A DNA stretch of 64,000 bases from Azolla caroliniana (Eukaryota > Plantae > Polypodiophyta). Position numbers and translations under genes: made by a program. The notes under the pieces were generated by a model. The model had not been told where the DNA came from and made no database searches. It was given only the letters and a program-made list of their open reading frames with translations. The number at the start of each line of letters is the position of its first letter. The stretch's first letter is position 1. The stretch lies in assembly GCA_043228905.1 (NCBI GenBank), contig JBHGNT010000008.1, positions 4,774,001 through 4,838,000 of the forward strand, given 5' to 3'. Shown piece after piece: positions 4,733 to 62,510 of the stretch.

Positions 4733-6615
4733 ATCGCTACCCATGAGGTGATCGTCCTTTCGATGGGCATTACCGGTGTCATGAGGAAAACCGGCTACAA
4801 GGGGAAAAAGCACCAAAGGTGCGTGAACAACCACATGCACGGATGCACACAAGTTGTAGTATATGCTTGTAAATAACCTAGGACTAAGTTTAGGTCGGTG
4901 TGATGTAAGAACACATTAATAGGGTGAATTAAATAGTGATCAAATCGAAACGAATCTCTGTTTGAGGCGGCAGGGAATAACTACATGATGTAACAACCTC
5001 CCCTCGGCATATAAAAGGAGGGAGAGAGGGTTGAGAAGGGGATCGCGGTTTGGAGAACGAAGTGCTGTCGGACTGGGAACCGAGTGCTCAGATTTCTTAT
5101 CCTCTATTTGTGTTTCTTTGGTCGGACGCCTTTGCTCGCGTAGGAAGCCTGTGTGCTCCCGACAGAGGCTCCACATTGTATTTACATACTAGTGCACGTG
5201 TATTGTTTGCTAAGCTCGTAGCTCAACTCCTGGCTGAGTTGGTTGTAGTTTTTTTTTTTTTGATCGATTGTTGGCACCCGTTTTGTTGATCTTCTAGCGT
5301 GTTGCTCCAATCCCGGCCGAGCCGGTGGTGTCATGTATGTCTAGATATCTAACAATCTATACCCCCTACCGACTTCCTTATTCTTCTTCTTTTTCTTATG
5401 CTCCTTGGTTCGAGGCCCCCGCAGTCCCGCCTTTGTTTCGCACGCACACTCGTGAATACATGAAATAATTTGGTGAACCCAATGTGAAACAGGCGGCAGA
5501 GGAGTTTCGAAGATGAGGGGAAGTGAGCTCGCCAAAGCCATGGTGGTAGCTGTTGACCACCTCGTGAGCGCTTGTGAGGGCACGAGTGCCCTTGATAGGG
5601 CCATTGAATCGATTGTCGGCACAGTAGGCTGGTTTGATGGGAAGAACACGATGAGTTATCTTGAGACCTACCACCGGGGTCGAGATGATAATGAAGGACA
5701 TCTCGGAGGACAGACGCCTATTAGGATTCCCTCGGGTGGTTTTGCCGAGCATTCACGTAGAGGTGCTCGAGGTACAACTAGGGTGCCAAAACTGGGATGA
5801 GTTCGAGGGACTTCTCCTCAAGAGGTACGGGTTCAATGACTTGCTTCAGTTGTCGAAGCGGGAGTTTATGGAATGGGTTGAGAGCCCTAGAAAGGGGAGG
5901 AATACGTCGACGCTCCTCTAGGAGTTCGAAAGGCGATTTGCTCGGCTATCAGCTCTCGGCGCTGGACCGGACCGTGCTCGATACAAGTCGGGTCCTACTC
6001 TTCATCAAGTCGGTGGATGCGCTTGATCAGGAGAAGGTGGGTCTCCTGCTGGAGATGGATGAGGGGCTTACGGCTGATTGGGATGTGGTTAAAAGGTTTG
6101 GAACCGTTTCGACAAACGCTGTGAGTGGAGTGACGAGTGTCCGTCGGCAGTAGGCCCGACGGTGGGGAGGAAGCTTGAAGAACCGATTCCGACTCGAACA
6201 GAAGAGATGCGAAGGTGGATCGAGTCCAGCATGGTTCCGACTAACATGATCCAGAGCCCATCTGGAGGTGCGGCCCTAGATGACCTCACTAAGATGGTAC
6301 GATGTCGTGTGAATCTTCACACACTATGTAAAAAAATAATGAAATAATTATTATAGATTAGATTAGTAGCTTACTATAGAAAGATGGATATACTCAAGAG
6401 CTTCAAAATGTATTTTACTATATACAAAATGGAGAAATACATACCAACTTATGAGAAAATAAAGTTTGATTAGATAGGGAAATTAGAACTATCCCACATA
6501 GATAGGAAAGTTAAGGCCCTGGCTATATAAGCACCTTGAGCTCCCTCATTTTTCATTTGTGCTAAGAGCACTTTGGCCACTTTGTCTTGATGGATGATGG
6601 TGGCCAAATTCCTTA

Positions 6616-7310
6616 AAACCGGAAACCGGCCGGTAAGCAAAACCGGAACTGGAATCGGCAAGCAAACCGGAATCGGCAAGCAAACTGGAACCGGCCGGCA
6701 AGCAAAACCGGAACCGGAACTGGAAAGCAAACCGGAACCGGAGCCGGAAAGCAAACCGGAACCGGCCGGCAAGCAAAACCGGATCCGGAACCGGCTGGCA
6801 GGCAAAACTGGAAACCGGTCGGCAAGCGAAACCGGAACTGAAACCGGCAAGCAAACCGGAACCGGTCGGCAAGCAAAATCGGAACCGGAACTGATCGACA
6901 AGCAAAATGGAACTGGCTACCGGACGATGTTGGACGCGGACGGACGAAAGATTGCATCATGCAACAAACTAAAGTAAAGTGAAGAGAACTAAAGTAAAGG
7001 CCATGTGGACGCAAGCAACTAAAGAAGGGAGTGCATGGCCGGCAAGCAAAACCGGAACCGGAACCGGCCGGCAGGCAAAACCGGAAACCGGCCGGCAAGA
7101 GAAACCGGAACTGAAACCGGCAAGCAAACCGGAACCGGTCGGCAAGCAAAATCGGAACCGGAACTGACCGACAAGCAAAATGGAACCGGCTACCGGACGA
7201 TGTTGGACGCGGACGGACGAAAGATTGCATCATGCAACAAACTAAAGTAAAGTGAAGAGAACTAAAGTAAAGGCCATGTGGACGCAAGCAACTAAAGAAG
7301 GGAGTGCATG
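6616..7310 (+). repeat. AAACCGG(AACCGG)n/CAAGC tandem array plus a 273-bp duplication within the 5' LTR
   Basis: Visible short-unit array; CAAGCAAAATGGAAC recurs at 6899 and 7172. The counterpart array in the 3' LTR is at 9722-10060. Confidence 0.9.
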
Positions 7311-7954
7311 GAAAAAGTAAAGGTCATGTGGACAGTCACATGCAACCAAAAGAAAAAGCTAGGCAACTAAAAGTAGAGGCCATGCAACAAAAAGTGAAAA
7401 GGCTATGATCAAGAGAGAACTCCATTTTTATTCCATTATTTTTTCTACACGAAGACTCTCCATATTATTATTATTTTCTTCTCAACTCCCTTATCTTAGG
7501 GAAGCGATAACACTCAAAAACCCTAATCTTCCCTACGGAAGCCAGAATACTCATATAACCTAATCCTAATCTTCCCTACGGAAGCCATATCTCTCAAAAC
7601 CCCTAATTTTTCTTTTCTATTAATCTTAGTAAACCTAAAACTTCTAAATCCCAATCTTGGGACATATTGTAATTTCTTTTTCCTTTGTTAATGAAAATTA
7701 TTAAATTTCTTCTTTTTGTTAATTGTTAAAAATATAAACGTACACATGTGATTATCCTCTGGTCGGAGGCCCCGGGGTCCTGCCTCAAGTTCGCGTATCC
7801 TCGTCGTATTTTCGCGACATCTTTGGTGAACCCGACGTGAAACGAGGCGGTAGGAGGATATCTCATGGAGGCATATATATACAAAGAACCGAAGAGATGC
7901 AAACTATACGAGTTCGATCAATGGTTATCATCATTAAAGACCCACTAAAGTGCC

Positions 7955-9292
7955 ATGCATGCTTTCGTTGAGTTCGAGTGTCGCTTTGCACAACTCTCGG
8001 AGCGGGATCAAAGATTGGTGGGGTTGGAAAAAGTCCTAATGTTTGTGAAATCGATAGACCGGAAGGAAAGGAATGCCATTGGAATCCGACTTGAAGATGA
8101 CGATGGTGCAAATGGCCTCACAGAAGATTGGACGAAAGTGGAAAGAGTATGTCGACTTCACGATGAGAGGAAGGCAAGATTCTCATCGGTGACAACACAA
8201 CGTACTAGGGATGGTGAAAAGAGGACGGGAAGCAACTACAAACTACCACCTAAAGAAGAAAACTCGAAGAGGGAAGGTTCAACAATACTCGACATAGAAG
8301 TCTTGATGGAAGAGGCATTCGAGAATTTAAAGGCGCAAGTTGAGGCTGAAGAGAAACTTCAAAAGGAGCAAAAACTGAAGCAAATGATGAGCGAAGAAGT
8401 GAAGGCCAAAACTAACACATGCAAAGAAGAGGGAAGAATAATCGAGGATTGCTCGATTGAGAAGGTCAATGGGTACGAGGCCGATGAATTTGAAGAGATG
8501 GCCACAAATAACGAATTAGAGATGGAGGTGGCTATGGACAACACAATGAAGGAGGATGGCAAGTGTGCCGAGACTTCTTCCCCACTATTTCAAGATATTT
8601 GGGCAATGGTAGACGGGAACATATTGGTCGGTGGAGAAAGGGCCATCACCGAAGAGACATACCCGAACCAAATAAAGACCCAAGAGATGGAAGGTGGTAA
8701 TGAGGAAGTGAAGGTCAATGTTGATATATACGATGAAGAGGTCAAACAAAGCACAATGGTGCATGACAATGGCCAAGCGAGCCAAGTGAAGTCTAAGGGT
8801 ATTCCGCGAGATATGATCCCATGCTCTGACTCAAAAGGGGATTCTAGTGTGAAGATCAAACAAACGATGGTCAACTGTCACACGAGAGCATACCATGAAA
8901 AAGGTGGATGTGGGAAACATGAAATGTGGTCATCCCAGATTTTGAAAGTGAGCGTGGACTTGAAGCATGGGCTACAAGGAGTAGTCAAAGTCAATGTTCA
9001 AGTGAGGTCTAATGAAGACAAACCTAGATTGATGAAAGAAGGAAGACTAAAATGCGTTAACCATGGAGATGGTCGAAATAAAGGTAGCACTTGCATGATG
9101 CATGAAGGGTTATGCTTCGGGAAGGCAGAAGAAGACATGAAAACCAAATATGGCAATGCAAAGCTCAAACAAAGGATTTGGTGGTTTGGATGGTCTCCAT
9201 GGTTATGGTGGAAAGAATGGTCATGGTGGCATTGGAAGAAGAAAGATAAGGAACCAACGAGTTGGTTCAAGTTCAATCTCTATCATAGATAG
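7955..9292 (+). CDS. gag: Gag-derived protein with an acidic unknown region and a Trp-rich C-terminus
   Basis: 445-aa ORF. The N-terminus (EFECRFAQLSERDQRLVGLEKVLMFVKSID...LTEDWTKVERVC) is homologous to family-A gag (EFEERFARLSALERTVLDTSRVLLFVKSVD). Confidence 0.7.
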   Translation: MHAFVEFECRFAQLSERDQRLVGLEKVLMFVKSIDRKERNAIGIRLEDDDGANGLTEDWTKVERVCRLHDERKARFSSVTTQRTRDGEKRTGSNYKLPPKEENSKREGSTILDIEVLMEEAFENLKAQVEAEEKLQKEQKLKQMMSEEVKAKTNTCKEEGRIIEDCSIEKVNGYEADEFEEMATNNELEMEVAMDNTMKEDGKCAETSSPLFQDIWAMVDGNILVGGERAITEETYPNQIKTQEMEGGNEEVKVNVDIYDEEVKQSTMVHDNGQASQVKSKGIPRDMIPCSDSKGDSSVKIKQTMVNCHTRAYHEKGGCGKHEMWSSQILKVSVDLKHGLQGVVKVNVQVRSNEDKPRLMKEGRLKCVNHGDGRNKGSTCMMHEGLCFGKAEEDMKTKYGNAKLKQRIWWFGWSPWLWWKEWSWWHWKKKDKEPTSWFKFNLYHR

Positions 9293-12200
9293 TTAGCTTA
9301 TGAAGGAAAGAAAATATTACGACAACGATTAAAGATTTCAACTAGGAGGATACAACTCAATAACACAATTGGCACATACCGGTGGATGTGCAGGTTTGGT
9401 GGGGGTGAATGTCGTGTGAATCTTCACACACTATGTAAAAAAATAATGAAATAATTATTATAGATTAGATTAGTAGCTTACTATAGAAAGATGGATATAC
9501 TCAAGAGCTTCAAAATGTATTTTACTATATACAAAATGGAGAAATACATACCAACTTATGAGAAAATAAAGTTTGATTAGATAAGGAAATTAGAACTATC
9601 CCACATAGATAGGAAAGTTAAGGCCCTGGCTATATAAGCACCTTGAGCTCCCTCATTTTTCATTTGTGCTAAGAGCACTTTGGCCACTTTGTCTTGATGG
9701 ATGATGGTGGCCAAATTCCTTAAAACCGGAAACCGGCCGGTAAGCAAAACCGGAATCGGAATCGGCAAGCAAACCAGAACCGGAACCGGCAAGCAAACTG
9801 GAACCGGCCGGCAAGCAAAACCGGAACTGGAACCGAAAAGCAAACCGGAACCGGAACCGGAAAGCAAACTGGAACCGGCCAGCAAGCAAAACCGGAACCG
9901 GAACCGGCCGGTAGGCAAAACTGGAACCGGAACCGGCCGGTAGGCAAAACCGGAAACCGGCCGGCAAGCGAAACCGGAACTGAAACCGGCAAGCAAACCG
10001 GAACCGGTCGGCAAGCAAAATTGGAACCGGAACTGACCGGCAAGCAAAATGGAACCGGCTATCGGACGATGTTGGACGCGGACGGACGAAAGATTGCATC
10101 ATGCAACAAACTAAAGTAAAGTGAAGAGAACTAAAGTAAAGGCCATGTGGACGCAAGCAACTAAAGAAGGGAGTGCATGGAAAAAGTAAAGGTCATGTGG
10201 ACAGTCACATGCAACCAAAAGAAAAAGCTAGGCAACTAAAAGTAGAGGCCATGCAACAAAAAGTGAAAAGGCTATGATCAAGAGAGAACTCCATTTTTAT
10301 TCCATTATTTTTTCTACACGAAGACTCTCCATATTATTATTATTTTCTTCTCAACTCCCTTATCTTAGGGAAGCGATAACACTCAAAAACCCTAATCTTC
10401 CCTACGGAAGCCAGAATACTCATATAACCTAATCCTAATCTTCCCTACGGAAGCCATATCTCTCAAAACCCCTAATTTTTCTTTTCTATTAATCTTAGTA
10501 AACCTAAAACTTCTAAATCCCAATCTTGGGACATATTGTAATTTCTTTTTCCTTTGTTAATGAAAATTATTAAATTTCTTCTTTTTGTTAATTGTTAAAA
10601 ATATAAACGTACACATGTGATTATCCTCTGGTCGGAGGCCCCGGGGTCCTGCCTCAAGTTCGCGTATCCTCGTCGTATTTTCGCGACAACGGGATCTCCA
10701 GATTGTGCACGCCCGGAGAGACAACAGGGGACAGTCACGTGACCGGAGGCCTTTGGTCGACCAACGATGTATGTGGTGCGACGCGGTCGGCCACACTCGA
10801 AGAGATTGCACGGATTTTACCGAGGCACTTATAAGCAACATGGCGTACCTATGGAATGGGCGGGTGCACACATGTGAGACTCGGAAAGCCCTAGAATTGA
10901 ATACCGGTCGGGGCGGAATGAAGCGATTAATGGAAGAACCCTCGGCATGACAAGCCGAGGCCGTCCATTATTCGCCATCAGCCGGTATCCGGGTCCGAAG
11001 CGATGGTGGCCTGAAACCGAAGGATTTCGGGTTCTAGCCACTAGTGCTGGAAGGCCTTTGCCGAGTACGGTTGAGGAAGGAAGAAGCGGACCGCGCGGAG
11101 AAGCGGGTCCGGGAGGTCACAAGGTGGAACAATCCGGTTGAGGAAAAGACACTCTAACCAGTACGACACCTAGAGTGTGCCAAAGAAGAACGATGCCGGG
11201 ACTTTCGGTTTGCAGGATAGGTTAAAGCCGGCAGGTTACTGGCTACACACGGAAATAGAAAGAGCAACGGACTTGCGGAAAGTCCTCGAAGAACTGTTCC
11301 TTGACAGCTAGGTGGAGCTATCTTTGAGGGAAGTACTAGGGATTGCCAAGGAGTTCCATGAATCCATCGTGGACTTGGTGAAGCACAAGAGGCTCGCGAC
11401 GGAGTCGGAGAAGCCCGTGGAAGTGCGAACGGCACACCTAGATGATACGACAGTAGAAGACGAATTGGCGGAGAGCCATTACTTGAACCCGCATTGGGCA
11501 AGAGAAACTATGGAGACCCCGTTCGGATCGGGAACATCCAAGAACCGGTGGTGGCCCTGAAAGACCATGGATCCGAAATCAACCTAATGTCCATGGATTT
11601 CTACAAGAAAGGAAAATGGCTGACCAACACCAAGCACGGGTGGAAGATATGCGCAGCTACGCGCGCTACGGAGGAACTACACTGGGCGTGCCTGAATGTA
11701 CCGGTGAAGATTGGGGATGTTGAGATTGATCAACACTTTTTCGTGCAGGAGACTTCCTCACACCCAGTGATTCTCGATGAACTATACATTACGGCGGCCC
11801 ATATGGAGACCAAAGTGTTGGACGACAATTTGGCGTATGCACGGGTGAAGAGCCAGGATGGGCGTCACTCCGTCCAATTCTTGACGGTTCGTCCTAACCA
11901 CAAGCGTAACCGCGAATCTCTTGGTAGCGATGACCAAGAGGATTTTTAAAGAGGGCTATCAAGGCATGGGGCCGCAGTAGTCCGGACACCTAGGAGAAAC
12001 CCCACACATGTACCATAGGTAGGAAATTTTGGTTCTCCGACGGTGGAGGTTCTACTATAACCGGCATTAGCGGCCAGGAAAAGAGGCGGGTCGAAGAGCA
12101 TTTAAGGGCGTGCGGTGCCCTTAGCTCTGATGACGAGATTAGTAGTGTCGTGGAGGCAGTCTCATTGGACGACACCCTTGGAGAGATCGAAAGGGTAGCT

Positions 12201-12356
12201 GATGAAGGCCTAAGCGAAGACCGGGTAATTCCGGTCAGTTCCGTGGAAATGTATGAAGACAGAGAAGTACTGTAAGGAACAATACTAAGACAGAGAAGGA
12301 ATTAGTACTAAAAGATGAGGATTAGTACTAAGGGAGGTGTAGAACTCTCGAGAGAA

Positions 12357-12405
<49 letters not shown>

Positions 12406-12624
12406 TGATAACAAAAGATATATATTATGTTAAGAGAATATACAATAGTAGCTAGGAGGCTTAAGACTGGCGTTGAACCGATTTAGTTCGAAATAATGCC
12501 TTGTGCCTCCTTTTATAGTGTTCTCAGGAGTACTCTTGAAGTTTCTAGAATGTTCCAAAGAAATCTGGAATATACATCAATTTTCTATAATAAAACTTAA
12601 ATGAAAATAAAATCCTTCGTATTA

Positions 12625-12692
12625 CAACATATAGTCTAATGGTCAAAAGCTCGACCCATGTAAGATAAGGTTATGGGTTCGAGTCTTGCCAT
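12625..12692 (+). promoter_or_regulatory. tRNA-like Pol III type-2 promoter (A box plus B box) in the chromoviral LTR, antisense to the element
   Basis: A box TAGTCTAATGG at 12632-12642 and B box GGTTCGAGTC at 12676-12685, with 33-nt spacing. Recurs at ~28876-28935, ~30150-30213 and ~42690-42750. Confidence 0.55.
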
Positions 12693-12701
12693 ATCATGAC
12701 A

Positions 12702-15307
12702 CTATCCCCCTTTAAAACGACAAGTGTCACGAGTCGTTTTGGATTGAGGACCCGGTTTGTCTGGATATTGATGATGGAAGTCTTCATGAAGAGCACAAGC
12801 ATTGGTCACACACATTTTGTATTGGTTCCCAAGTATGCTTGCTAGGACTATATCCTAGCAATCGACTAGATAGTAGAGCTTGTTGCGAACAATCTTGGAA
12901 TCGAGGATGATAGCAACCTTGTACTCAGGTCCATCTTCAAGTTCGATCGAGGGTGGAGGTTGTTTAATACGACCTGGGATGATACTATCTTGATAGGGTT
13001 TGAGGAGAGAACTATGAAACACGAGATGTATCCGAAGTTGTGGAGGTAGAACGAGACGAAAAGCGACATCATTAATTTTTCTGATAATACGGAAAGGACC
13101 TAATTGCCGATAATCCAACTTCTCGCATGGGCGAGTAGTCTTGATGTGTCATCGTAGTAGCCATAACTGATCTCCAATGTTAAAACTGGATGGAAGCCGA
13201 TGACAATCCGCGTAAACCTTGTGTGTTTGTTGAGCTTGATGTAGATCAGTAGATAAATCCACTTGTACCTTATGTAACTGCTCCAAACAATCTTCTGTGC
13301 AAGGATTTGTGGGTAATTCCGAGGTTTCAAATACACACCATCGGGGGTGACAGCCCGTATAAGCATAAAATGGTGTAACCTTTGTTGATGAGTGGACACA
13401 GTTATTATATGCAAATTTGGCAAAGTGGAGAATATCCGCCCAATTATCTTTATGATAGCTTAGAAAGTACCGAAGATACTGCTCCAACGTTTGATTTGTT
13501 CGTTCTGCTTGGCCGTTTGTATGTGGGTGGTAGCTGGAGGAGAGGTTCAAGTGACCTTGAGCATTTTAAAGAGGTGCTTCCAAAAATTCGAGACGAACTG
13601 GGGTCCACAATCGTTGATGATATTATCGGGAAGGCCTTGATGCCGACATACTTCACGCATGACAGTTTCAGCGGTTTCCTCACTGGAGATTTCCTTAGTA
13701 CATGGCAGGAAATGGGCCATCTTCGTATATTGATCTACTACTGGTAAGATCGTATCGAATCCCCTTAGAGACAGGAAGATCTGTGATGAGATCTAGAGCA
13801 ATAGATTGCCACGACTTGCTTGGAATTGGTAATGGTTCTAATAAACCATATGGATGATGCCTTGGCATTTTTGCTCTGCAACATGTATACAAGTCTGAAC
13901 AAAATCTTCGACAAATTGTCGCATATGGGGCCACCAAAATGATCGTTGTACTAAATCTAATGTTTTAGTACTACCAAAATGCCCAGTTGTATATGTGTCA
14001 TGATAGTTTTGGACTACTCGAAGGCGACAAGAACCATTAGGAACATACAATAATTTCTTAAAGAATAGTAATCCATCATGACATTCTAATTGTTGATAGT
14101 TTGTACTTGTTGGTCCCAGGATTACTTGCTTTTGGTTATCGAAAGCTGGCTCGCCAAGATGTGGTGCTAGATACAAGCGCCATGATAATGGATCTGCCTT
14201 CCCTTCTTGCTTCCCCGGACGATATGTCATTTTGAAGTAGAAACGAGTGAGGAATTGGGCCCACCGAGCTTGATAGTGATTTAACACACGAGCATTCTGA
14301 AAGTAGGCAAGGTTTTTGTGATCACTGAATATGGTGACTTGATGAGAAGATCCCTCTAGAAAATGCCTCCATTGCGTAAAAGTGTCCACTATTGCTAATA
14401 GCTCCTTATCATGAATTTCATAGTTGATTTCGGCAGCGTCAAATTTACGTGAGTGGAAAATCACAGGATGGAGCTTTTTATCATCCCCTTGTTGTGACAG
14501 AATGCTACCCAACGCGAAATCTGACGCATCTGCTTCGATGATGAATGGTTTTTCCGGATCAACATGAGCTAGAATAGGAGTTGATGTAAATGTCTTCTTA
14601 AGATACTCAAAAGCCATGTCCGCTTCTTCAGTCCAAATGAACGATTGTCCCTTCCTGGTGAACTGTGTGAGAGGCAGAACAAGGTTTGAGTAATCCTGTA
14701 TAAACTTGCAATAGAAATTGGCAAAGCCTAAAAAGCATTGCACATCTCGCAATGAACACGGAATCTGCCACTCTACCACCATTTTGACCTTAGCTGGATC
14801 CATGGAGATGCCTTCCGAGGAAATGACATAGCCCAGAAATTGTACGCGGTTGTAGTCAAAACTACATTTTTCCAGCTTTGCATAAAGACCATGTTCTTGA
14901 AGTCGTTTTAGTACTAACATTACATGAGAATCATGCGCTTCTTGGGTCTTCGAATAAAACAGTAGATCATCCAAATATCCAAGAGATCTTGGAATATATC
15001 ATTTGCCATGTGCTCGAAGACTGTTGGCGCATTAGTGAGGCCAAATGGGATGACCGTATACTCGAAGTGCCCATATCTGGTGCGAAATGCGGTCTTCCAT
15101 TCATCTCCTGGTCGGATCTGTACGAGGTTATATGCTCCTCGTAAGTCGATCTTTGTGAAGAACCTTGCACCATTGATCTGTTCTAAAAGATTTGAGATAA
15201 GGGGAAGTGCGTACCTATTCTTGATGGCGACCTTATTTAAGCCACAGTAATCTACGACAAGACAATCTGATCCATCCTTTTTCTTGACGATGAAAATGGG
15301 TGCGTCG
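12702..15307 (-). pseudogene. pol: Chromoviral RT-RNase H-integrase-chromodomain (broken)
   Basis: ORFs 13838-14974 (DDLLFYS, EADASDFALG, NYEIHDKELLAIV), 13149-13550 and 12855-13118. Confidence 0.9.
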
Positions 15308-15492
15308 TGTCGAATACAAGTGTATAATGGACGTATTCACACTATCCCTTTTGTATAGCTTAAGTTTGGGCCATTTGTGTAATTAGCATAAATGGTAGTT
15401 GCCCTAAGTCGGTCACTATATAAAGTGACCTTGTAACCTTTTTGTAGGGTTGGGTTGTATTATTGTCTTATTGTAATAGAAAGACTTTTGTG

Positions 15493-15533
<41 letters not shown>

Positions 15534-20803: not shown

Positions 20804-21281
20804 CGTCGGCTGGAGATTTCGAATGTCGAATTAAACCATTTGCCAAATTCTCCTCTATATAGGCTCGAAGGACTTCTAGCTTGGTTGGAGACAAATTGTA
20901 GATCGGTCCCCATGGTTTTCCCGGTTGTAAATCGATGGGGCAATCATACGGTTGATGGTGAGGAAGCATATTGGCCTGTACTTTATCGAACACATCGGCA
21001 TAATGACGATACTTCTCTAGAAGTTGAACAATGGACTCCTCTTTAGTGGTGTTGGAGGGTTTTACTAATATTGCGAAGAGAAACATTTCTTCCTTGCGTC
21101 CTTCCTCACACAATTGATGTAGCAAAATGGTTGCAATCTTATGAGTAGATCAACGGGTTTGTCGACACCGTATTTCTCTTGTTCTCCAATTTATGGTTGG
21201 GTTATGTAATTCAAACCATGGTAATCCCAAAACAATGGGATGTTCTGGGATATTAATTATATTAAATGATACTACACACGC

Positions 21282-50418: not shown

Positions 50419-50994
50419 TGCCGCGGTTTTCCACAGGGATGTGTCGAAACGGGGCAGGACCACAGGGGTCTCGGACCAATGAGCCGATGGGAGTAGGAAG
50501 GACTGTGTCGGAGTCCGGATGGCTTCACCGGATCCGTTTCCCAGACGCGTGCCCGATCCAGAACGATTCCCCGATATCGGCCGGTTCGCATACAGGACTG
50601 AGGGAGTGAACTACTCCGGACAGGATGCCAGACAACAATGATAAGCCAATGAGCACGCAGACACGGAAACCCACACAACATAAAGAAGAAGGAACAACAC
50701 AATAATTCCCGTACACAAGGAAAGGCTCGACAAAATACTAACGATTATCAAAGAAGAAGGGACTACAACCGGACTCATCTGGCGACAAATCTGCGAGCTG
50801 CACACACCCACACATGCACGGAATGATGAACCTCTAGTCGGGAGCACACAGCTTCCAATGCGAATAGAGGCTTCAACATCTTCCTGGAATTAGTACAATG
50901 CACAATGCACAGAGAGGGGAGAGAGAGGTTGGCACTCAAATCGAAAACGCTTCGTCCTTCCAATCCTCGATCCTTAAAATAGGCTTAAGTCACA
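50419..50994 (-). repeat. Truncated gypsy family-A LTR
   Basis: The reverse complement carries the family-A U5 end motif (GACCCCTGTGGTCCTGCCCCGTTTCGAC...CCGCGGCA). The right boundary is approximate. Confidence 0.7.
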
Positions 50995-52689
50995 ACTGTA
51001 GAAGTCTGTGGCTTTGTCGACCACAGAGGCAACGTAATGGCAGAGGTAGAGGCCAGCAAAGAGCTAATCTGGATGAGAAATTTTCTCAATGAGTTGGGGA
51101 TAAGCAAAGGGAGTTCTTGCTTCATTGTGACTGCCAAAGTGCCCTACATCTAGCAAAGAATGTTGCGTACCACTCCCGAACCAAGCACACATAGAGAAGG
51201 TATCACTGGTTGCGGGAGAAAGTGGAAGAAGAAGAGTTTACCCTTGTGAAGATCTACACTGACGAAAATGGATCCGACATGTTGACAAAGAACCTACTAA
51301 TGGACAGACTCAAAGTATGTCCCTCCTATTGAAACAACCAACCGGTCGGGCCGAGTACCGACAATCGAAGACATGAGGAGCCGACAATAGGAGAGTCCAA
51401 GTCAAAGACATGACCAACTAGTTGGGCCGACTGGATAGTCGATGCTGAAGTTGACTAGTCCACCTGTTGGCTGAATATCTATCACTATTATAATAGGAAT
51501 GACAGTAGCAGTGGCTACATTTATAAATAATCCCATACAGGATATAAGTATAAATATACTTAGGGCAAACATAGAGAGTGTAGAACTGAACAGTTGTGAG
51601 CCTCTGTAGTTAAGATTTGATAGTGAAGAGAGAGTATGTGAGCCGGTGTCGTGAAGATTACGGGACATAGTGAGAAACTGGGGAATATCGGAGGAATTGG
51701 CAAGGTGCACCATGTGCACCCACTCTTGTAAACTTGTATGGCGGAATGGGGGGGGCGCCTTTATGATGCCGAGCGGCAATAAAGTCGGGATGGATGATCC
51801 CATGTATCACGGGATTTATCCCACATAGCCACGAGGCCCTCACCTTGTTCTATAAAAGGGAGGGCGCACTTCTTGTAAATGGTTCCCACCTGTTGTCCCA
51901 AACAATTTCGTTCCTCATTGTTCCCCTTTGTGGGTTCCATTTTTGGTGTTAATAAACTTCTGTGTATAACGTTGTCGAGGTATTCCTCGCGGATGCGTGG
52001 AACGAGGCGGGACCTCGGGGGTCTTGTACCGAAGAGCAAGAGAGGAAAGGAGAAGGGAAGAGACCCACTAGGTGCGAGCGTAGATTCACAGGGACACGGC
52101 CCTTCGACACAAAGATGTGAGTGCGACAGCGACACAGAGGGACACGAATGTATGTAAAATATATATAAACAAGACAAACAACAAGAAGCACGAAGTCGGT
52201 TACAACCGGACAGGTCAGCGAACAGATGCCGATGCCTGTTCATAAACGCACAGAAAGGAAGGAGTAGGTTGGAGGTGCTGCCGGAAGCACTCGGGCATTC
52301 CTCAGAGCAGCGCGAGCCTCCCGAAACCTGCACAGAAAGGAGCTACAGAGTATGGAAGAGAGAGAAGCCTTCGGCCCGCAATCCAACAGCACTTCGTCCT
52401 CTCTATACGCGATCCCCTCCTCCTCCTCGTCTCCCTCCTTTTATAGGCAAGAAGGGAGCCGTTTCCTATTAACTTCCTACCTACCGAATCTACCTACCTA
52501 GGATCTCCCATGTCCCTAATTCTCTCCTATGTACAACACACGGCGTGCGTGCATGAAGAGCCGGTTCCTATGCTCCGGCGCACCGATTCCGCTCGTGGAC
52601 GGTTTTCTTCACGACATCTGCCCCCACCTAACCGCGCATCCACCGATATGCGCCAAATTGAGTTGGGACGGAGAAAACCGGTCCAGCCT

Positions 52690-55600
52690 TCATTCCCCGC
52701 CCGTCGGTTCTTCCTCGGTTTCGGATCGTTCGTCGTTCTGGTCCAGGTTAACCGGATCCGGCTCGTCATCGTGACGCTTCTTGAACGCTTTGATCCGCTT
52801 CCCAGCTACCGGTATCGCCACTCTCGTGCCGTCGAGTTCCGCCAGATGGTAGGTCCCGTTGTTGTTGGCGCTTTGTACCACGTAAGGCCCGAACCACCTT
52901 CTTGCGAACTTCCGTGTCGCTCGGTGCTGGTTGTTGAGGCTGCTGTCGTAGACTAGCACCCAGTCGCCTTCCTCGATCTTCTTCGGTCGGAGCCGGTGCG
53001 TTCGGTCGAACCGGGCTTTGTTCCTCATCCTTGCTTCCGGACGCTTTTCCGCAGCCTGCTCCACGTCCTCCGGTCTTCGCTCGAGCTATCATATACGCGC
53101 CGCCAGCAGTTCCTCCCGGCTCATCTCGTCTCTCCAGTCCACGGTTGCCCACGAGGAGATCGTACGTTCCATCGGCATGATCGGCTTCTGCCCAAACATG
53201 AGCTCTGCCGGCATGAATCCGGTTACCGAACTGTGCGTAGTTCGGTCCGCCCACAACGCGTAAGGCAACAGCCGCGGCCAGTTCCCGACTTGACCTCCGC
53301 ATGCCCGAACTAATGCCTTGACGACCGGCCCGTGTCCGCACTCCACCTTCCCATTCGCCTCCGGATTGTATGCAGTGGTGAGCGAGAGCTTGACTCCTAG
53401 CCCGTTGAACAGCTCCTCGGCCTCTTCGGCGTCCAACTCCCCGCGATCAGCCACGATCTTCCCGACGCACCCGTACCGGCATATCACGTCCTCGAGCAGG
53501 AACCGACATACGGCTGTAGTCGTTTTGTTCTGAAGGGCCCGACCTTCCACCTGGTTCGTCAGATCTTCCCGAGCAAGGACCAGATACCGCATCTGTCCTA
53601 CTCCCATCGGCATCGTCACCAGGTCTACCATCCATTTGAAGTGGATGGTCGGAGGGTACGTACGGTGAAGCCCGTCCCGATGTCGGACTATGGAGTGCAT
53701 CTGACAGCTCTCGCAAGTTGTCACGAACCGATGCACGTCCCGGTACAGTCCCGGCCACCAATACATCCCTTTTATCTTCTCGAACGTGGCCCACGTTCCA
53801 CGTTGTCCAGCCTAAGGGCTGTCGTGGTAGGCCGTCAGCCGCTCCTCCTGTTCTTCCTTCATCGCCACCACCCAGAGCGGGACGCCGTTCCTCTTCTTCG
53901 GGTGCTTCCATAAGTATCCGTCCCGGAGAAAGAATCGGTATGCTTTCTTCCGGATCCGGTTGGTCTCGTCCCTCATCCATGACGCATCCGGCGTCATTGT
54001 CCTCAAAAATCCACCGATTTGGAGCCACTCGCCGTCGTACTTGCTCTCGTCGAAGTTGTTAAGTGCCGGAGTGCTCGTCCCATCGGTCGTCACGTACGCT
54101 GCCTTGAAGAAGTCCACGCCGACTTCTTCGTCCTCCGAAACCATGCCGCCCTCGCCATCAAACCTCGCCCTCGAAAGCATGTCGGCCATGGCGTTGTCCT
54201 TTCCGGAAATGTGCCGTATTTCCGGGTCCAGGGACTTGATGTACACTATCCACCGGAGCATCGTCAGGTCCGGTGTCGCGCATCCGGAAACCATGCCGAG
54301 AATCGACAGGCAATCCGTCTCGATAATCACTTCTGTCCCGATCAGGTAGTCTTTGTCGGCCTTTACTGCCGAAACGATACCCCAGAGTTCGCGTTTAACC
54401 TGGGCGTACCCTCGCTGTCACTCACTGAGGACCTTTGCGCCGAATCGGATCGGGAACCGGGTGTCGTCCTCGTCTTCTTGGTTGACGACCCATCCGATCT
54501 CAGTCGGACTCGTATCCACCGTTATGTATACCGGGGTAACCTTCTCGTAGACATCCTTCCGGAGCGCCGGTGCTGCCGCAAGAGCTTCCTTCAGCTTCCG
54601 GACCGACTCCGTGTGCTCGTCTCGCCACTCGAATTTTTGCCCTTTCTTCAGCATCCCGTATAGCGGCTCCGCAACGTGGGCGTAATGCGGGATCCATATG
54701 TGGTAGAATGCGCATGCCCCCAGGAACCTCCGAACTTCCGTAACCGAGCTACAGTCGGTCTTCATCGCGGAGATGGCTTCTACTTTTGCCGGAGACGGCT
54801 TCCGGCCATACGGTCCACATAGGTGTCCGACCAGCAGGATTTCTGATTGCTCGAAGGCCGATTTCTCCCCGGAGAAGGTGAGCCTCGCATCCTCTAGCCT
54901 TTGTAGCACCTTCTCGCAGTCGTCGATGTGTGTTGCCATGAATCGCCGGCATCCATCCGGCCCGAGTGTCTCGTCCTTCTCTTCCACCGGGCACCCTTTG
55001 ATAGGGATGTCGTCCAGAAACGGCATGGTGATGTCCGGGATGCAATCCCTCAGTACCTTGTTCATTGCATTCACCATGTGGGCCACCGAGTTGGTCCCTC
55101 CTTGCGGCAAGGTACACATTCGCACTAGGCCGAGGGGGGTTCGCATCGTCGTAATGTCTCTGCTCTCCACGGCTAGCTGGAACTGGTCGTACCCCGAGTA
55201 CAGATCACCGACCGAGTAAATCGACCTTTTGGCGAAGGCCTCCGCGAACTCGTCTATGGTCGGTCTGATTCCTGCGTTCTGAATGGTCACTCTGTTGATC
55301 GGCTGCAGGTCCTGAATGAAGCGCAATGTCCCGTTTTTCTTTGGTACGGTAAACCATCGGTTCGAGTATGGCGCGCTCGACGGTTTGAGAATACCCATAT
55401 CGACTTTCTGCCTCAGTAGCTCCATCAACTCCGGGATGTGAGCTCTTGGTACTGGAATCGGCTTGAGATTCCACGGCACATGCGGTACCGTGAATATCAC
55501 CATCGGCTCCACGATCATCGGATCTACGCACCCGATCTCTTCCGGTGAGAATGCGAAGGCCTTTCCGTGCCTTCCGAGCATTCTCCGAAACCGGTCTTCC

Positions 55601-56187
55601 TCCGCCGGCAGTAGGAACCCGCCCCCACCGATCTTGAGCTCCCGGAGCGTCCCGTCGGTGAAGGTGTGTCCTATGCAGGCCGGATCTCGTAAACTGGGGT
55701 CCGACGCAACCCCTCTGATTCGGGACTCGCTGCCCTCCGGTAAGGGTGCCGCGACTGGCCTTACCTTCCGGTCCACAGTCTTGTACTTCGTGCTAACTCG
55801 GGCCGTCCGATCCGACCCGAGCCCCCGACTGAAGTTCGCGATGACTTCGTACATCTCTTCGGAACATACCGGTATCGTCTGGTTTTCGTTAAGGTCTTCT
55901 CCGGCTACCTTCCTCAGCATTCCCAAGGTGTCGTCGAAGGAGACCGCCTCCACGGCTCCGCTGATTTCCTCGTCCGGGCCGAGAACTCCGCACGCTCGAA
56001 GTCGCTCCTCCGCCCTTGCCCTTTCTCGGCCAACGATGCCGACTATCATACACCCTCCGTTGTTGGAGAAGCAGAATTTTCTACCTATCTTACAAGGTTT
56101 CATCGGTTTCAGTTCTATCATACAGATGTGGGGTCTTTCCCGAGTGTCCGGACTGTCTCGGCCCCACGTCTTGGCAGCCCTCTCTAA
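52690..56187 (-). pseudogene. pol: Gypsy-A pol (RT-RNase H-integrase) with a few premature stops
   Basis: ORFs 54418-56121 (LRFIQDL, DLYSGYDQ, LPQG, FLDD), 53812-54330, 53089-53766 and 52690-53064 all lie in one frame. Confidence 0.92.
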
Positions 56188-58294
56188 AAATCCTCTCGGT
56201 TCTCGCCACCGAGGGATTCGCGGTTTCGCTCGTGCTTCGGCCGCACCGTCAAAAATTGGACCGAATGGCGCCCGTCCTGGCTCTTGACCCTCGCGTAGGC
56301 CAAACCGTTGTCCAGCACTTTGGTCTCCATTCGTGCCGCTGTGATGTATGGTTCCCCTAATATGACCGGATGCGAGGACGTCTCCTGCACGAAGAAGTGC
56401 TGGTCAATCTCGACGTCGCCGATCTTGACACGCACATTCGGGCAGGCCCCGTGCAGTTCCTCGGTGGCGCGCGTCGCCGCCCGTATCTTCCACCCGTGCT
56501 TGGTGTTGATCGGCCATTTTCCCCTTTTGTAGAAGTCCATGGACATCAGGTTTATTTTCCAACCGTGGTCCACCAGTGCCACCACCGGTTCCTGAACATC
56601 TCCGATCTTTACTGGGGTCTCTGTAGTCGCTCGGGCCCAGTGCGGCCTTGAATAGTGGCTCTCCGCCCACTCATCTTCCAGCGCCATGTCGTCGATGTGC
56701 GTCATCCGCAGCTCCACCGGTCTTTCCGGTTCCGTCTCCGTCGACAGCCTCTTCCGTTTCACCAGGTCCACAATGGAGTCGTGGAACTCCTTCTTGGCGA
56801 TCCCTAGCACCTCTCGCAATGATAGCTCCACCTTGCTGTCAAGGATCCGTTCCTCTAGGACCTTTCGTAGGTCCGTAGTCCTTTCTATTTCCGTCCCCAG
56901 TCGGTATCCGCCCTTCCTGGGGTTATCTTGCGAGCTGGACCCACCGGCATCGTTCCGTCATTGCCCGAATTGGGTCTCGTACCGTTGTGAGGGCCCGGCC
57001 GCTCCGGCTTTCCCCACTCGTTTGTCTTCTACCAGAGCCTCGTAGTTCCGGCAGGCGGCTTCTACGAATCCCGTCTTCTCCTCGACCGGATCGCTCCACC
57101 CGGTTATTTCCCGGACCCTTCTCTCAGCGCGTCCGTTTCATCTTTCCTTAGCCTCGCGCCGACAAGACCTTCCAGCATTGCCGACCAGAATTCGTCTTTG
57201 CCCTCCTTTCGGGCCTCGCTGCCCCCGACCCGAATGCCGGCCGACGCCGAGTAGTGGATGGCCTCCACGTGTCGGGCCGCTGCCTCTTCCATCAGTCTCT
57301 TCATTCCTCCTCGCCCGTCATTTCGGTTTAGGGCCCTTCTGGTGTCGCCGGCGTGCACCCGGCCTTCCCACAGGTACACCACCTGGTTCCTCAACGCTTC
57401 TGTGAAATCGCCGCAATCCTTCCGGATGTGGCCGACCTTGTCGCACCACATGCACCTGTTCCCTGCTACCGGCCGTCGGTCACGAGCCGTTTCGCCGCCT
57501 TCCCTTCGAGTCTGGGCGATCTGGAGATCCTTTATTGCCCGCGTCAACTCCTCCAGCGCTGCTCCTCCGGACGAGCCACTGACCATGCCAGTCGAAGCCG
57601 GACCGGTTTCTAGCCATTCCCGGGTTTCTTCCCTTCGCCCTTGTGGTGCCGGTTCAAGCCTCCTTGCTGTGACAGAGCCCGCACCAGCCGCCCCGTTGTC
57701 AACCCATTCTCGCCGTTTGTCGAAACGGCCATAGACTCTCTTAACCGCAGCCCAGTCGATCGTCTGCCCGTCTTCGGTTTCCAGCAAGGAGCCGACTTGA
57801 TCCCAGTCCCAATCGTCCACCGACTTGACGAACAGTAGGACCCGGCTCGTATCCAGAACGGTTCGCTCAAGCGCCGAAAGGCGCGCAAAGCGTTCTTCGA
57901 ACTCCCGGAGGAGTGCCGACACGTTTCTTCCCTTGCCGGGGGACTCCACCCATTCCATGAAGTCTCGTTTCGAAAGCCGGAGCACGTTGTCCAGCCCGTA
58001 TTTTTCCAGGAGTCGGCCTTCGAACTCCTCCCAGGTACGACTCTCCGCCCGCACCTCGAGCACCTCCGCATGGATGCTCGGCATCGCCACTCGAGGAAAC
58101 CCGGCAAGACGCCTCTCTTCCGGAATGTCCTGCATCAGCATTTCTGCCCCGTAGGACGCCAAATACTTCGTGGCATCCTTTCCGCTGAACCGGCCGATCG
58201 TACCGACAATCGCCTCAATGGCTCTGTCGAGGGCGCCGGAGCCCTCGCGTGCGCTCAATATCCGATCCACGACCGAAGGCCATGGCCTCCGCAA
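56184..58294 (-). pseudogene. gag: Gypsy-A gag-protease (disrupted)
   Basis: ORF 57104-58294 has the CMWCDKVGHIRKDC knuckle. ORF 56184-56831 has ALVDHG...VILGEPY aspartic-protease-like motifs. Confidence 0.88.
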
Positions 58295-58332
58295 GATCCA
58301 ACCCTTTCATCTTCTGCTCTTCTGCCGCCTCT

Positions 58333-58350
58333 TTCACGTCGGGTTCACCA
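58333..58350 (-). promoter_or_regulatory. Primer-binding site complementary to the tRNA-Trp 3' end
   Basis: TGGTGAACCCGACGTGAA is the reverse complement of ...TTCACGTCGGGTTCACCA, the plant cytosolic tRNA-Trp 3' end as I recall it. Also at 5471, 7824 and 60800. Confidence 0.8.
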
Positions 58351-59999
58351 AGATGTCGAGGTATTCCTCGCGGATGCGTGGAACGAGGCGGGACCTCGGG
58401 GGTCTTGTACCGAAGAGCAAGAGAGGAAAGGAGAAGGGAAGAGACCCACTAGGTGTGAGCGTAGATTCACAGGGACACGGCCCTTCGACACAAAGACGCG
58501 AGTGCGACAGCGACACAGAGGGACACGAATGTATGTAAAATATATATAAACAAGACAAACAACAAGAAGCACGAAGTCGGTTACAACCGGACAGGCCGGC
58601 AAACAGATGCCGATGCCTGTTCGTAAACGCATAGAAAGGAAGGAGTAGGTTGGAGGTGCTGCAGGAAGCACTCGGGCATTCCTTAGAGCAGCGCGAGCCT
58701 CCCGAAACCTGCACAGAAAGGAGCTACAGAGTATGGAAGAGAGAGAAGCCTTCGGCCCGCAATCCGACAGCACTTCGTCCTCTCTATACACGATCCCCTC
58801 CTCCTCCTCGTCTCCCTCCTTTTATAGGCAAGAAGGGAGCCGTTTCCTATTAACTTCCTACCTACCGAATCTACCTACCTAGGATCTCCCATGTCCGTAA
58901 TTGTCTCCTATGTACAACACACGGCGTGCGTGCATGAAGAGCCGGTTCCTATTACCTGGCGCACCGATTCCGCTCGTGGACGGTTTTCTTCACGACAACG
59001 TCTATTTCTGTCTTCTTTTCATCTTGGTGTGGGTGTTGTCTCTATTTTTCTGTTAGGGTTTCGGTACCATCTGTGTGCGTGCATAGGTGGTGTGTTTGGT
59101 TGTGGCAGGTGGCATGCGGGCTGTCCGCGGCTCCCCTGAGCTCATGTTTGTTGGTTCTAAATGCTCCATGGTCCGGTATGTCTGTGTATGTGGGTGTTGG
59201 CTTTTGTCGTTTGCGAAGAGTGCTTACACTAGGTGGTTCGTTGGCAGGTTCCCCTCCTTGGCGCGCAAGACCCAACTCAGTTCTGTGAGCCCGTGCGCTC
59301 CCTAAAGGCGGCTTGGCTTAGGAGGCGGTCGTTCTGGAAGAGGCGTGCCTTGCAGAGGGTCTTGTCGCACGAACGAGCCTGAGAGCTCCCCGACCGGCCC
59401 TAGGATGCAGGCTCCCTCTTCCTCTACATGTGGAACTAGCGTCGCAGTGAGCGTCGTGTGTGTATGTGTGTGTGTGTGTTTCCAGTTAGTGTAGGATATG
59501 AGAGAGGGTTCCTGCGTGGTCGGCGGTGTAGAGGTGTCGGTCATATGCGGGTGTGTATGTGTGTGTGTGTGCGGGGGCGAGGATAACTGGCCGTCTCCTG
59601 AGCCTCTTTTGGGGCCCTTGTACATACGGGTGAAAGGGGCGGCAAGGACGAAGACGCACTCTCTCACTTCCTGTGTGGTTACTGGTCGCGTCTAGAGAGT
59701 ATCTGGGATCAAACCAGTCGGCAATGCGGCAAGCTTCGGAGGATTCGGGTTCCCGGCAACTCCTCCCTTCCTAGTCCATGACCCCGGTGGTCCCGCCCGG
59801 GTCCAACATGCAAGCGCGGATTATCACGACACCAGAAGGTGAGAGCTGTGCCATAACCTAGTGACGCTTGACGCCAAGAGCCATGTGTGGCTGATACACT
59901 CCGCATGGAGAGTGTTGTATTATGATCTCATCTTGTATTCTTTTGTTTATAGTGAAATCTTTGTTCTCCCGTGGTTTTCCCCATTTTGTGTTTCCACGT

Positions 60000-62510
60000 T
60001 GTCGTGAAGATTCCAGGCCATCGGGGGAAACGTCGCCAAATGCATGGGAATGTGGGTGTGCACAAGTGCACCCCCTTTCTTTTTTCTGTACTAATTTATG
60101 TAAGTACTAGGTGTCGGTAGGTTTTGTGAATTGCTAGGAAGTTAGGCCCACTATTAGAGGATTTGATATTGCGTGGGTTGGGACACGGAAACAAAGGTGA
60201 GATAGTGAGAGCACATCAAGAAGAGAATCTAGGAGAGAATATCGAGGAGTCATTAAACCTGATGTAAAGACTACTCCTTGTGCTATAAAGGGGGCGGCCT
60301 CAGCCTGTTTGAGGGATCGTTCTTTTGTCTTTCTTGAGAAGCGGAGGACGCTACAAAACAGGAAGAAGTAGCTCACTCACTCGTTCTCTTCTGACCCTCT
60401 ACGAACAAACCTTGGGAGGAACCCTCGGCTCGCGTCAAACACCCACGCGCTCCCGGCCAGAGGTTCCCTTTTTTTTCTGTGTGTTTGCTCTAGAGCTCGA
60501 AGCCCTATTCCCGGCTCTAACCGGTTGTATTCCATGCGTTTCACACCCGCGTCCTAACTACTATTGACAATCTATTCCGTTGTTTTACATTTTTCCCTTG
60601 TGTCATTCTCGTGTTGTTATTCTCTCGTACTGCATTGAGTAAACTTACGACCACCTCCTTCCTACTCCTCTTTGTTTGATTCACGGTGTTTGTGTATACA
60701 CGACTCGCGGACCTCTTCCTCCTTTCTCGATTCCTTGGTTCAAGACCCGTGTGGTCCTGCCCCATTTCTACGCATCCACGCGGAATACCGCGACATATTT
60801 GGTGAACCTAGCGTGAAACAGTGGTGGCAAAGGAATCGGAAGATGAGAGGGAGCGAACTCGCCGAAGCGATGGCGGTGGCTGTAGACCGCCTGGTTAGCG
60901 CTCGTGATGGCACGAGGGCCTTTGACAGGGCCATAGAGGCAACAGTCGACAAGATAGACCGGTTCGGTGGGAAAGATGCCATGAGTTACGTTGACGCCTA
61001 CAAGTCCGCGATGCAGATGAGGAACATTCTGGAGGATAAGACGATTGACCGGGTTTCCTCGGGTCGTGACGCCAAGCATCCATGTGCAAGTGCTCGAAGT
61101 ACAAGCGGGCGGCCGCAATTGGCCGGACTTCACGGAGCATATTCTCGAATGGTACAGCTTCGATGACTCGCCTCGGCTGTCGAAGAAGGCTTTCATGGAT
61201 TGGGTTGATAGCTCTGGCAAAGGTCAGAACGCATCGGCGCTCCTTCAGGAGTTTGAGTCGCGGTTCGCACGGCTCTCCACACTGGACTGGATTATGCTTG
61301 ACATGAGCAAGGTCCTACTCTTTGTTAAGTCGTTCGACTTGCTAGACCGCGATAATGTGGGTTTCCTTTTAGAGACGAACAACAGACTCACAATTGACTG
61401 GACCGTGGTCAAAGGGGTGTGTGGCCGAAGTAACAAGCGTAGAGACCGGAAAGAAAAGGAGTCCTCAACAGTCGGACTGATTGTCGAAACGAGGCCCGAG
61501 TTGGCGTCAACCCGAATGGAAGAAACGAGAAGGTGGCTCGAGTCAGGCTTGTCCCCGACGAACGTAGTCGCGGGACCATCCGGGGGCGCGGCTCTAGAAG
61601 AGCCACGCGACTGGCGGTAGCCGGCCAACCAAAGGTGCATATGGCGTGATGCCCTTGGCCATGCCCAAAGAGATTGTGCAGACTTCGACGAAGCACTCAG
61701 GAGCAACATGGTGTACCTTTGGAATGGTAGGGTGCACGCAAGCAACACACGGAGAATGCTCGAAGTAAACCTTGGATGAGGCGGCATGAAGAGGTTGATG
61801 GAGGAGGCTGCGACGCGGCACGTCGAGGCCATCCACTACTTGGCCTCAACCGGCATTCACGTAGGTGGAAAGGCGGCTAACGCCGATACAAACCCCGGGT
61901 TTTGGCCAGAGGTACTGGAAACCTTCTCCGAAAGGAGGCTGAAGAAGGAAGAAGTTGACCACGCGGAAAAACAAGTACGTGATGTCACTGGATGGGACGA
62001 CCTGGTTGAGGAAAGTACCGACTTTGTGGAAGCCTCGTGCCAAAACTACAAGGTTCTGGTCAACAATAAGCGGGCCGGAAAGACCGGAGGAGTGGGCCCT
62101 TCGGGGAGGTATGACACCTGGAGCGGACCCATTCAAGAGAAGGAGAAGGCCAAGGTTCCGAATCTCTGGTTAAGCTCGGAAATAGAGAAAACAACGGACC
62201 TATGAAAGGTCCTAGAGGAACGAATCCTCGATAGTCGTGTAGAACTCACACTGAGAGAAGTGCTAGGCATAGCAAGGAGAGAGTTCCAAGATAGCATTGT
62301 GGATCTCGTAAAAAGGAAGCGTCTCGCGATGGAGCCGGAACCAGAGAAGCCGGTCGAAGAAAGGGTAGCGCTGCTCGACGAAGTGGCCACGGAGGACGAG
62401 CTTGCGGAAAGCCACTATACAAGGCCGCAATGGGTAAGAGCAACGACAGAAACCCCGGTTCATATCGGGGATGTGAAGAAACTAGTGGTGGCGTTGATCG
62501 ACCACGAATA
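60000..62510 (+). mobile_element. 5' part of another gypsy family-A element (LTR, PBS, decayed gag-PR)
   Basis: LTR 60000-60795 (TGTCGTGAAG..CGACA); PBS at 60800; gag fragments 60843-62510 ending at ALIDHE. Confidence 0.88.

What the first reader, a model, noticed from the sequence alone, without database searches (positions are those of the whole stretch)
4773..60003. Gypsy family A inserts at CG-centred 4-bp target sites (6 of 6 scorable junctions)
Seen target sites: 4777/28997 CCGG-CCAG; 6303/10688 ACGA-ACGG; 51647/59831 CCGG-CCAG; 51973/58997 ACGT-ACGT; 60000 preceded by ACGT; 50419 preceded by ATGT. The 4-bp length is supported by host reading-frame restoration in two cases. All mismatches are transitions expected from methyl-C deamination. 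Established: most plant LTR elements make 5-bp TSDs with weak sequence bias, as nearly all other elements here do. Inference: this integrase has a 4-bp stagger and prefers (A/C)CG(G/T), possibly methylated CpG, which would offer a chromodomain-free route into heterochromatin.
Basis: partly seen in the sequence, partly recalled or inferred. Interest (0 to 1): 0.75.

Follow-up and report, generated by a model that had tools for sequence, protein, structure and literature searches.

The report
Phygy retrotransposons inserting at NCGN sites
These plant jumping genes do insert into four-base sites with CG in the middle, but they are very likely Phygy retrotransposons, whose NCGN target preference was published in 2019, and whether the CG has to be methylated is untested.

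Summary
The pattern is real but already published. Four family A insertions have both ends in the window; all four fit a 4-bp duplication best and have central CG in at least one copy. Two further junctions are one-sided, and one reads ATGT, so '6 of 6' is overstated. Outside the window, 18 of 19 LTR ends that face host DNA are followed by NCGN against a 3.6% CG background; contigs from three other samples agree. Family A is a short non-chromovirus Ty3/gypsy lineage with no chromodomain or extra RNase H and with Physcomitrium relatives. Neumann et al. 2019 list Phygy as 'TSD 4 bp (100%) (NCGN), PBS tRNA-Trp'. Most likely mechanism (inferred): a foamy-virus-like integrase cuts 4 bp apart, kinks the DNA at the central step and reads C-G directly; methylation then mutates the duplicated CG. 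Methyl-CpG targeting is neither shown nor excluded (about 20%). I could not run an RT tree against REXdb references.

The parts
4773..4776 (+). left TSD copy CCGG
4777..28997 (+). old family A element in a family A integrase: 5' LTR 4777-~5465, PBS core 5471, gag/protease pieces to ~12260, pol and most of the 3' LTR lost, last 52 bp of the 3' LTR at 28946-28997; nested insertions inside
   Evidence: flanks contiguous on paralogue with overlap 4
28998..29001 (+). right TSD copy CCAG
6299..6302 (+). left TSD copy ACGA
6303..10688 (+). young non-autonomous family A element: LTRs 6303-7819 and 9410-10688 (99% alike outside a tandem-repeat tract), PBS core 7824, one 447-aa frame with weak gag similarity, no pol
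10689..10692 (+). right TSD copy ACGG
   Evidence: overlap 4 on paralogue
50415..50418 (+). ATGT, one-sided flank in a copia RT frame; not scorable as a TSD
50419..50990 (-). truncated family A LTR (U5 end only, terminus TGCC); other end lost; right border approximate
51643..51646 (+). left TSD copy CCGG
51647..59831 (+). probable solo LTR (about 1.15 kb) split by the 51973 element; only its two ends align to other family A LTRs
59832..59835 (+). right TSD copy CCAG
51969..51972 (+). left TSD copy ACGT
51973..58997 (-). full-length family A element, 7025 bp: LTRs 58354-58997 and 51973-52616 (97.2%), PBS core from 58350, gag, DUF4100/protease region, pol 56166-~52690 in one frame with in-frame stops, RT-RH-INT, no chromodomain, PPT
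58998..59001 (+). right TSD copy ACGT
59996..59999 (+). ACGT, one-sided flank
60000..64000 (+). family A element: 5' LTR 60000-60795, PBS core 60800, gag region; no 3' LTR seen before the window ends
813..43305 (-). oldest family A host element; integrase in pieces 813-1197, 4733-4776, 28998-29785, 42761-43305

Best explanation
Family A is very likely a set of Phygy-clade Ty3/gypsy retrotransposons; their insertions are flanked by 4-bp CG-centred duplications, which likely arise because the integrase cuts the two target strands 4 bp apart, bends the DNA at the central step and reads the C-G pair directly, with no predicted need for methylation. Shown: 4-bp duplication; not-T,C,G,not-A target with ACGT commonest; integrase ending in an SH3-like domain and a short acidic tail, with no chromodomain; a pol-less element (6303) with the same termini and TSD. 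From the literature: 4-bp-stagger retroviral intasomes favour a bendable pyrimidine-purine step at the centre and disfavour T at the first and A at the last base (PMC4422553). Inferred: CG is chosen over TA, CA and TG by base contacts, possibly from the conserved basic loop before the GPY motif; the pol-less element borrows the integrase; after insertion the TSD is methylated with the element and its CG decays to CA or TG. Identity as Phygy about 0.9; methylation-independent readout about 0.7 given that.
For: Window: 4 of 4 two-sided sites best at 4 bp with CG in at least one copy; overlap 4 on a paralogue for 2 of 2 testable sites. Outside: 18 of 19 host-facing LTR ends NCGN, 1 ACAT, background CG 3.6%, p = 2e-25; position 1 never T, position 4 never A; 3 of 3 left flanks found are NCGN and L008 is ACGT/ACGT. 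Contigs of 3 samples laid on one LTR end extend into the flank to the C or A and stop there (listed loose ends 10, 10, 15 at 51969 and 5, 5, 4 at 51970; none listed at 51971-72), as a toy NCGN model predicts and a random-flank model does not. Phygy table row: 186 elements, 4 bp (100%) (NCGN), tRNA-Trp 81%, no extra domain. Eleven Physcomitrium patens proteins match the gag/protease region at 48-56%. No Chromo or aRH hit in 5 relatives at E <= 0.1, while family B scores Chromo at 9e-15. Closest solved integrase is PFV. General YR does not explain it: CA+TG are 14% and TA 6.7% of background steps but 1 of 19 centres.
Against: No RT tree against REXdb references was possible (MOESM3 too large). 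The full-length copy is 7025 bp, below the P. patens Phygy range of 7656-9968 bp. That the PBS matches tRNA-Trp is recalled; my attempts to confirm it found nothing. Only 1 of 4 window TSDs is perfect, and L006 has GCGT/ACGT. The overlap test has about 1 bp noise. The toy model did not reproduce the second depth ratio (observed 23-45, simulated 6-8), and 10 loose-end rows were not shown. The 19 outside loci are short-read metagenome contigs and may be one plant species. Nothing here measures methylation before insertion.
Confidence: 0.65

Rival explanations
1. The integrase itself prefers methylated CpG, giving a chromodomain-free route into heterochromatin.
For: CG centre is nearly strict; all six window insertions lie in other elements; CG-context decay shows the region is or was methylated; Phygy domains are reported enriched at liverwort centromeres (PMC12885004); an MBD-carrying copia sets a precedent (PMC6673714).
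Against: No MBD, SRA or chromo domain in Pfam scans or among listed fold matches. The window was TE-dense anyway and all other families nest too. TG/CA, which mimic methyl-CG for some readers (recalled), are not used (1 of 19), and both window CCAG copies face a CCGG copy. Only 4 of 19 outside flanks match window TEs within 40 bases of the junction (lower bound) and flank CpG o/e is 0.80. PFV and HIV local preferences are largely chromatin-independent (PMC4422553).
Confidence: 0.2
2. A host CG- or methyl-CG-binding protein tethers the intasome and positions the cut.
For: Tethering is common for retroelements (established knowledge); the acidic C-terminal tail of 40-91 residues after GPY/F is free for partners.
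Against: The tail is not conserved in 55 relatives; a tether sets a region, not the exact central two bases of a symmetric site (inference).
Confidence: 0.08
3. Family A belongs to another 4-bp lineage: TatI (4 bp, tRNA-Trp), Selgy or Galadriel.
For: TatI shares TSD length and primer type; no reference tree was run.
Against: TatI has aRH in 100% and Galadriel a chromodomain in 98%; neither is found, and pol aligns to a relative in one unbroken 1150-column match. Selgy uses tRNA-Ala and averages 5 kb. Only Phygy is reported with NCGN.
Confidence: 0.05
4. Chance or misplaced LTR borders in a CG-rich nest.
For: Small window sample; window CG frequency 5.6%; two junctions are one-sided.
Against: 18 of 19 outside; only 1 of 6 chance pattern matches had a central CG; internal LTR borders lack NCGN.
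Confidence: 0.02

Closest known systems
Phygy clade, non-chromovirus Ty3/gypsy (Neumann et al. 2019, PMC6317226; passages, section 9 and supplement MOESM5 read)
   Same: 4-bp TSD, NCGN preference, no chromodomain, no aRH, no extra ORF, coding region fills the interior, Trp-type PBS (tRNA identity recalled), Physcomitrium homologues.
   Different: Host is apparently not P. patens (gag/protease 48-56% identical); full-length copy shorter than the published range; a pol-less derivative; outer bases refined to not-T and not-A.
Jedlicka et al. 2019 (PMC6911290; passages read)
   Same: 4-bp TSD most common in Phygy; 4-bp TSDs have GC-rich central dinucleotides; Phygy nests in Tcn1.
   Different: Pooled logos, no mechanism for CG.
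Prototype foamy virus and gammaretrovirus intasomes (PMC4422553; passages read)
   Same: 4-bp stagger, central pyrimidine-purine step, T and A disfavoured at the outer TSD bases; closest solved integrase by sequence.
   Different: Their preference is weak and for any YR; here it is nearly strict CG. The residue aligned with PFV Ala188 is a conserved Glu.
CopiaMBD of arthropods (PMC6673714; abstract read)
   Different: Uses a captured MBD and biases regions; family A has no such domain and its bias is at the cut site.
TatI (PMC6317226 supplement MOESM5)
   Same: 4-bp TSD, tRNA-Trp primer.
   Different: Has aRH, about 9.1 kb, no NCGN reported.

Membership tests
Phygy | Ty3/gypsy order PROT-RT-RH-INT between LTRs | tested here: met
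Phygy | 4-bp TSD | tested here: met
   4 of 4 two-sided sites; overlap test; L008
Phygy | NCGN target | tested here: met
   18 of 19 outside, 5 of 6 in window
Phygy | No chromodomain | tested here: met
   family B is the positive control
Phygy | No aRH and no extra ORF; polyprotein fills the interior | tested here: met
   no positive control for aRH was run
Phygy | PBS complementary to tRNA-Trp | tested here: inconclusive
   One conserved PBS at 4 window LTRs and 7 outside loci; its match to plant tRNA-Trp is recalled, no tRNA gene was found to confirm it
Phygy | Length 7656-9968 bp as in P. patens (descriptive; the paper calls size relatively insignificant for classification) | tested here: inconclusive
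   7025 bp with 644-bp LTRs
Phygy | Phylogenetic placement in the Phygy clade of RT/RH/INT trees | not testable with these tools
   REXdb FASTA too large; indirect: P. patens proteins at 48-56%
TatI | aRH domain | tested here: not met
Galadriel / Tcn1 chromoviruses | C-terminal chromodomain | tested here: not met
Selgy | tRNA-Ala PBS, 4.4-6.7 kb | tested here: inconclusive
   Length above range; primer identity only recalled
Methyl-CpG-targeting retrotransposon (CopiaMBD type) | Encoded methyl-CpG-binding domain | tested here: not met
Methyl-CpG-targeting retrotransposon (CopiaMBD type) | Preference for methylated targets | not testable with these tools
   no methylome or empty-site data

The most novel reading that the evidence does not exclude
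The Phygy integrase active site, or its SH3-like C-terminal loop, recognises a symmetrically methylated CpG at the centre of the cut, so the element finds silenced DNA without a chromodomain, MBD or host tether: an integrase that reads an epigenetic DNA mark at the insertion site itself.
Probability: 0.2. Interest if true: 0.75.

Novelty: already known. Interest (0 to 1): 0.2.

Why it matters
As an observation it re-finds a published rule and extends it to a host that is apparently not P. patens, with a slightly sharper motif. The open part is why: Neumann et al. single out Phygy as the one plant lineage with a sequence preference, and my searches (mostly listings) found no paper on its mechanism or on a methylation requirement. 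The family is high-copy with young members, so the question is testable. If methyl-CpG were required it would be a new targeting route; if not, it is a rare nearly strict dinucleotide-specific LTR integrase.

Tried and rejected
No whole genome is held, so a genome-wide TSD logo was not possible. The first read-laying on the whole LTR listed no loose ends at the termini. A PBS pattern and a tRNA-end pattern found nothing in viral contigs or genomes; a 14-base pattern gave at least 120 prokaryotic matches, 80 listed, and 0 of the 60 scanned held a tRNA; a paper search for the PBS string gave 0. Of 32 metagenome loci I dropped 6 as chance matches (upstream identity 0.33-0.50) and 7 as PBS-side ends before counting 19; L028 was mislabelled PBS and corrected. 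Ten protein clusters gave no organism names. A copia search did not narrow the host. The integrase C-terminal model (pLDDT 77) had no fold match at E <= 0.001; top rows were Tudor domains and Ty3, RSV, MMTV and PFV integrases, all SH3-like barrels, so I do not read this as a methyl reader. GingerRoot (PMC6839031, 6-bp TSD) and the Cryptococcus preprint (10.1101/2025.05.19.654958) were read in passages and are irrelevant. PMC7466625 passages do not mention Phygy or TSDs. Earlier scan findings by words and by sequence: none. MOESM1 of PMC6317226, with per-element TSDs, could not be read and may already hold the outer-base refinement.
Full report
Setting. The window is a nest of LTR retrotransposons. 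It holds copia elements, a chromodomain-bearing Gypsy family (family B; Chromo E = 9e-15) and family A. Family A ends read TGTCG...CGACA, and four of its LTRs are followed by the same primer-binding core. No whole genome is held. Named relatives of family A proteins come from Riccia, Adiantum and Physcomitrium, so the host is probably a non-seed land plant; I did not determine which.

Checking the junctions. All cited coordinates are correct. Four insertions have both ends: CCGG/CCAG twice, ACGA/ACGG and ACGT/ACGT. A 4-bp duplication matches 3, 3, 3 and 4 of 4 bases; 5-bp and 6-bp alternatives match at most 2. For the two sites inside family A coding sequence I placed each flank separately on the uninterrupted paralogue in 51973-58997. 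Both gave an overlap of 4; for 6303 the 24-base flank and a more distant paralogue failed. Five control insertions gave 5, 5, 5-or-6, 6 and 4, so the test is good to about 1 bp. This also shows that 4777 and 28997 are the two ends of one insertion, although only 52 bp of its 3' LTR survive.

The two one-sided junctions are weaker. At 60000 the flank is ACGT and the other end is not in the window. At 50419 a truncated LTR end with a mutated terminus follows ATGT. The fair count is 4 of 4 two-sided sites and a literal CG at 5 of 6 sites (p = 1.8e-5 at the highest local CG frequency, post hoc). Of eight other elements, six have perfect 5-bp TSDs, copia 1198-4732 has ATCG/ATCG and one is rearranged.

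Independent sites. A pattern for the conserved U5 end found 32 metagenome loci. Six were chance matches (upstream identity 0.33-0.50; 1 of 6 with central CG) and seven face a PBS. The other 19 face host DNA: ACGT 9, ACGC 3, CCGT 3, ACGG, GCGT, GCGG, ACAT. That is 18 of 19 with central CG against 3.6% background (p = 2e-25), with no T at position 1 and no A at position 4. Three loci also show the left flank, all NCGN; L008 is ACGT/ACGT and L006 GCGT/ACGT. These are short-read contigs and may come from one species. Separately, contigs of three samples laid on the 51973 end pile up at the C and A of the flank, with none listed at the G or T (10 rows not shown). Depth falls only 1.6-1.8-fold from the inner to the outer two TSD bases. 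A toy model gives 1.3-2.3 for NCGN flanks, 6-11 for random flanks and 1.8-6.1 for any-YR flanks; no model reproduced the next drop of 23-45-fold.

What family A is. The 7025-bp copy has 97.2% identical LTRs, a DUF4100/protease region, and RT, RNase H and integrase. Its pol aligns to a full-length relative in one match of 1150 columns at 77%. Five relatives show no chromodomain and no second RNase H at E <= 0.1. The integrase ends 40-91 residues after the GPY/F motif in 55 relatives, in an unconserved acidic tail. Eleven P. patens proteins match the gag/protease region at 48-56%. Neumann et al. [quoted passage not shown] Their table gives 186 elements, TSD 4 bp (100%) (NCGN), tRNA-Trp primer 81%, no extra domain, 7656-9968 bp. 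Jedlicka et al. 2019 also report 4-bp TSDs as most common in Phygy (PMC6911290). TatI shares TSD length and primer but has aRH. I could not run the reference tree, and the tRNA-Trp identity of the PBS is recalled, not confirmed.

How it likely works. The closest solved integrase is that of prototype foamy virus. Intasomes with a 4-bp stagger bend the target sharply at the centre, favour a pyrimidine-purine step there and disfavour T and A at the outer TSD bases (PMC4422553). Family A has the same outer-base rule, so the same geometry is a sound inference. Bending alone does not explain CG: CA, TG and TA together are about six times as common in the flanks but make 1 of 19 centres. Some base-specific contact is needed. 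Candidates, untested, are a conserved basic loop just before GPY, in the domain where PFV Arg329 contacts target DNA, and a conserved Glu aligned with PFV Ala188 (numbering offset inferred). The pol-less element at 6303 shares termini, PBS and the 3' cis motif and the same TSD, so it likely uses the same integrase in trans. After insertion the duplicated CG decays: 9 of 13 transitions between the 51973 LTRs are in CG context (p = 0.0014), and both CCAG copies face an intact CCGG.

Methylation. Nothing here shows the target was methylated before insertion. No methyl-reader domain was found. Flank CpG o/e is 0.80, and 4 of 19 flanks match window TEs within 40 bases of the junction, a lower bound. 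The idea has a precedent in CopiaMBD (PMC6673714), and Phygy is reported enriched at liverwort centromeres (PMC12885004). My searches found no test of it for Phygy. I put it at about 20%.

Verdict. Real, well supported and already known as the Phygy NCGN rule. Interest 0.2; 0.75 if methyl-CpG recognition at the cut site were shown.

Noticed in passing
window 1198-4732: Copia element with an apparent 4-bp TSD (ATCG/ATCG; paralogue overlap 4). A 5-bp TSD that lost one base is not excluded. Lineage not determined.
   Followed up: partly
window 6303-10688: Young non-autonomous family A element: long LTRs with GC-rich tandem repeats, one 447-aa frame with no Pfam hit and weak gag similarity, no pol.
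   Followed up: partly
run X2, table 5c: One contig joins an LTR end to an LTR start through 8 bases, CCGCGCGG, which reads as two NCGN words back to back; perhaps two insertions side by side in a CG run.
   Followed up: no
window 53092-53811 (-) and 55 relatives: Integrase has a conserved DRGEL motif; the Glu aligns with PFV Ala188, a position described as neutral and compact across retroviruses.
   Followed up: partly
window 29786-42760 and 12271-28945: Family B chromovirus (Tcn1-like by its moss-type features, label not tested) inserted into family A; 5-bp TSD GCCTC at the first; the second borders a deletion that removed pol and most of the 3' LTR of the 4777 element.
   Followed up: partly
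window 15308-20803, 22134-27491, 32736-38216: Three closely related young copia copies (LTRs 99-100% identical) with long open frames of 1243-1361 aa.
   Followed up: no
window 31402-38742: LTR element (97% LTR identity, TSD TGCAA) whose short interior is a tandem array of about 53-bp units with no listed long frame of its own.
   Followed up: no
window 173-600: AT-rich stretch of many AAACC motifs with inverted-repeat-like ends, possibly a small DNA transposon.
   Followed up: no
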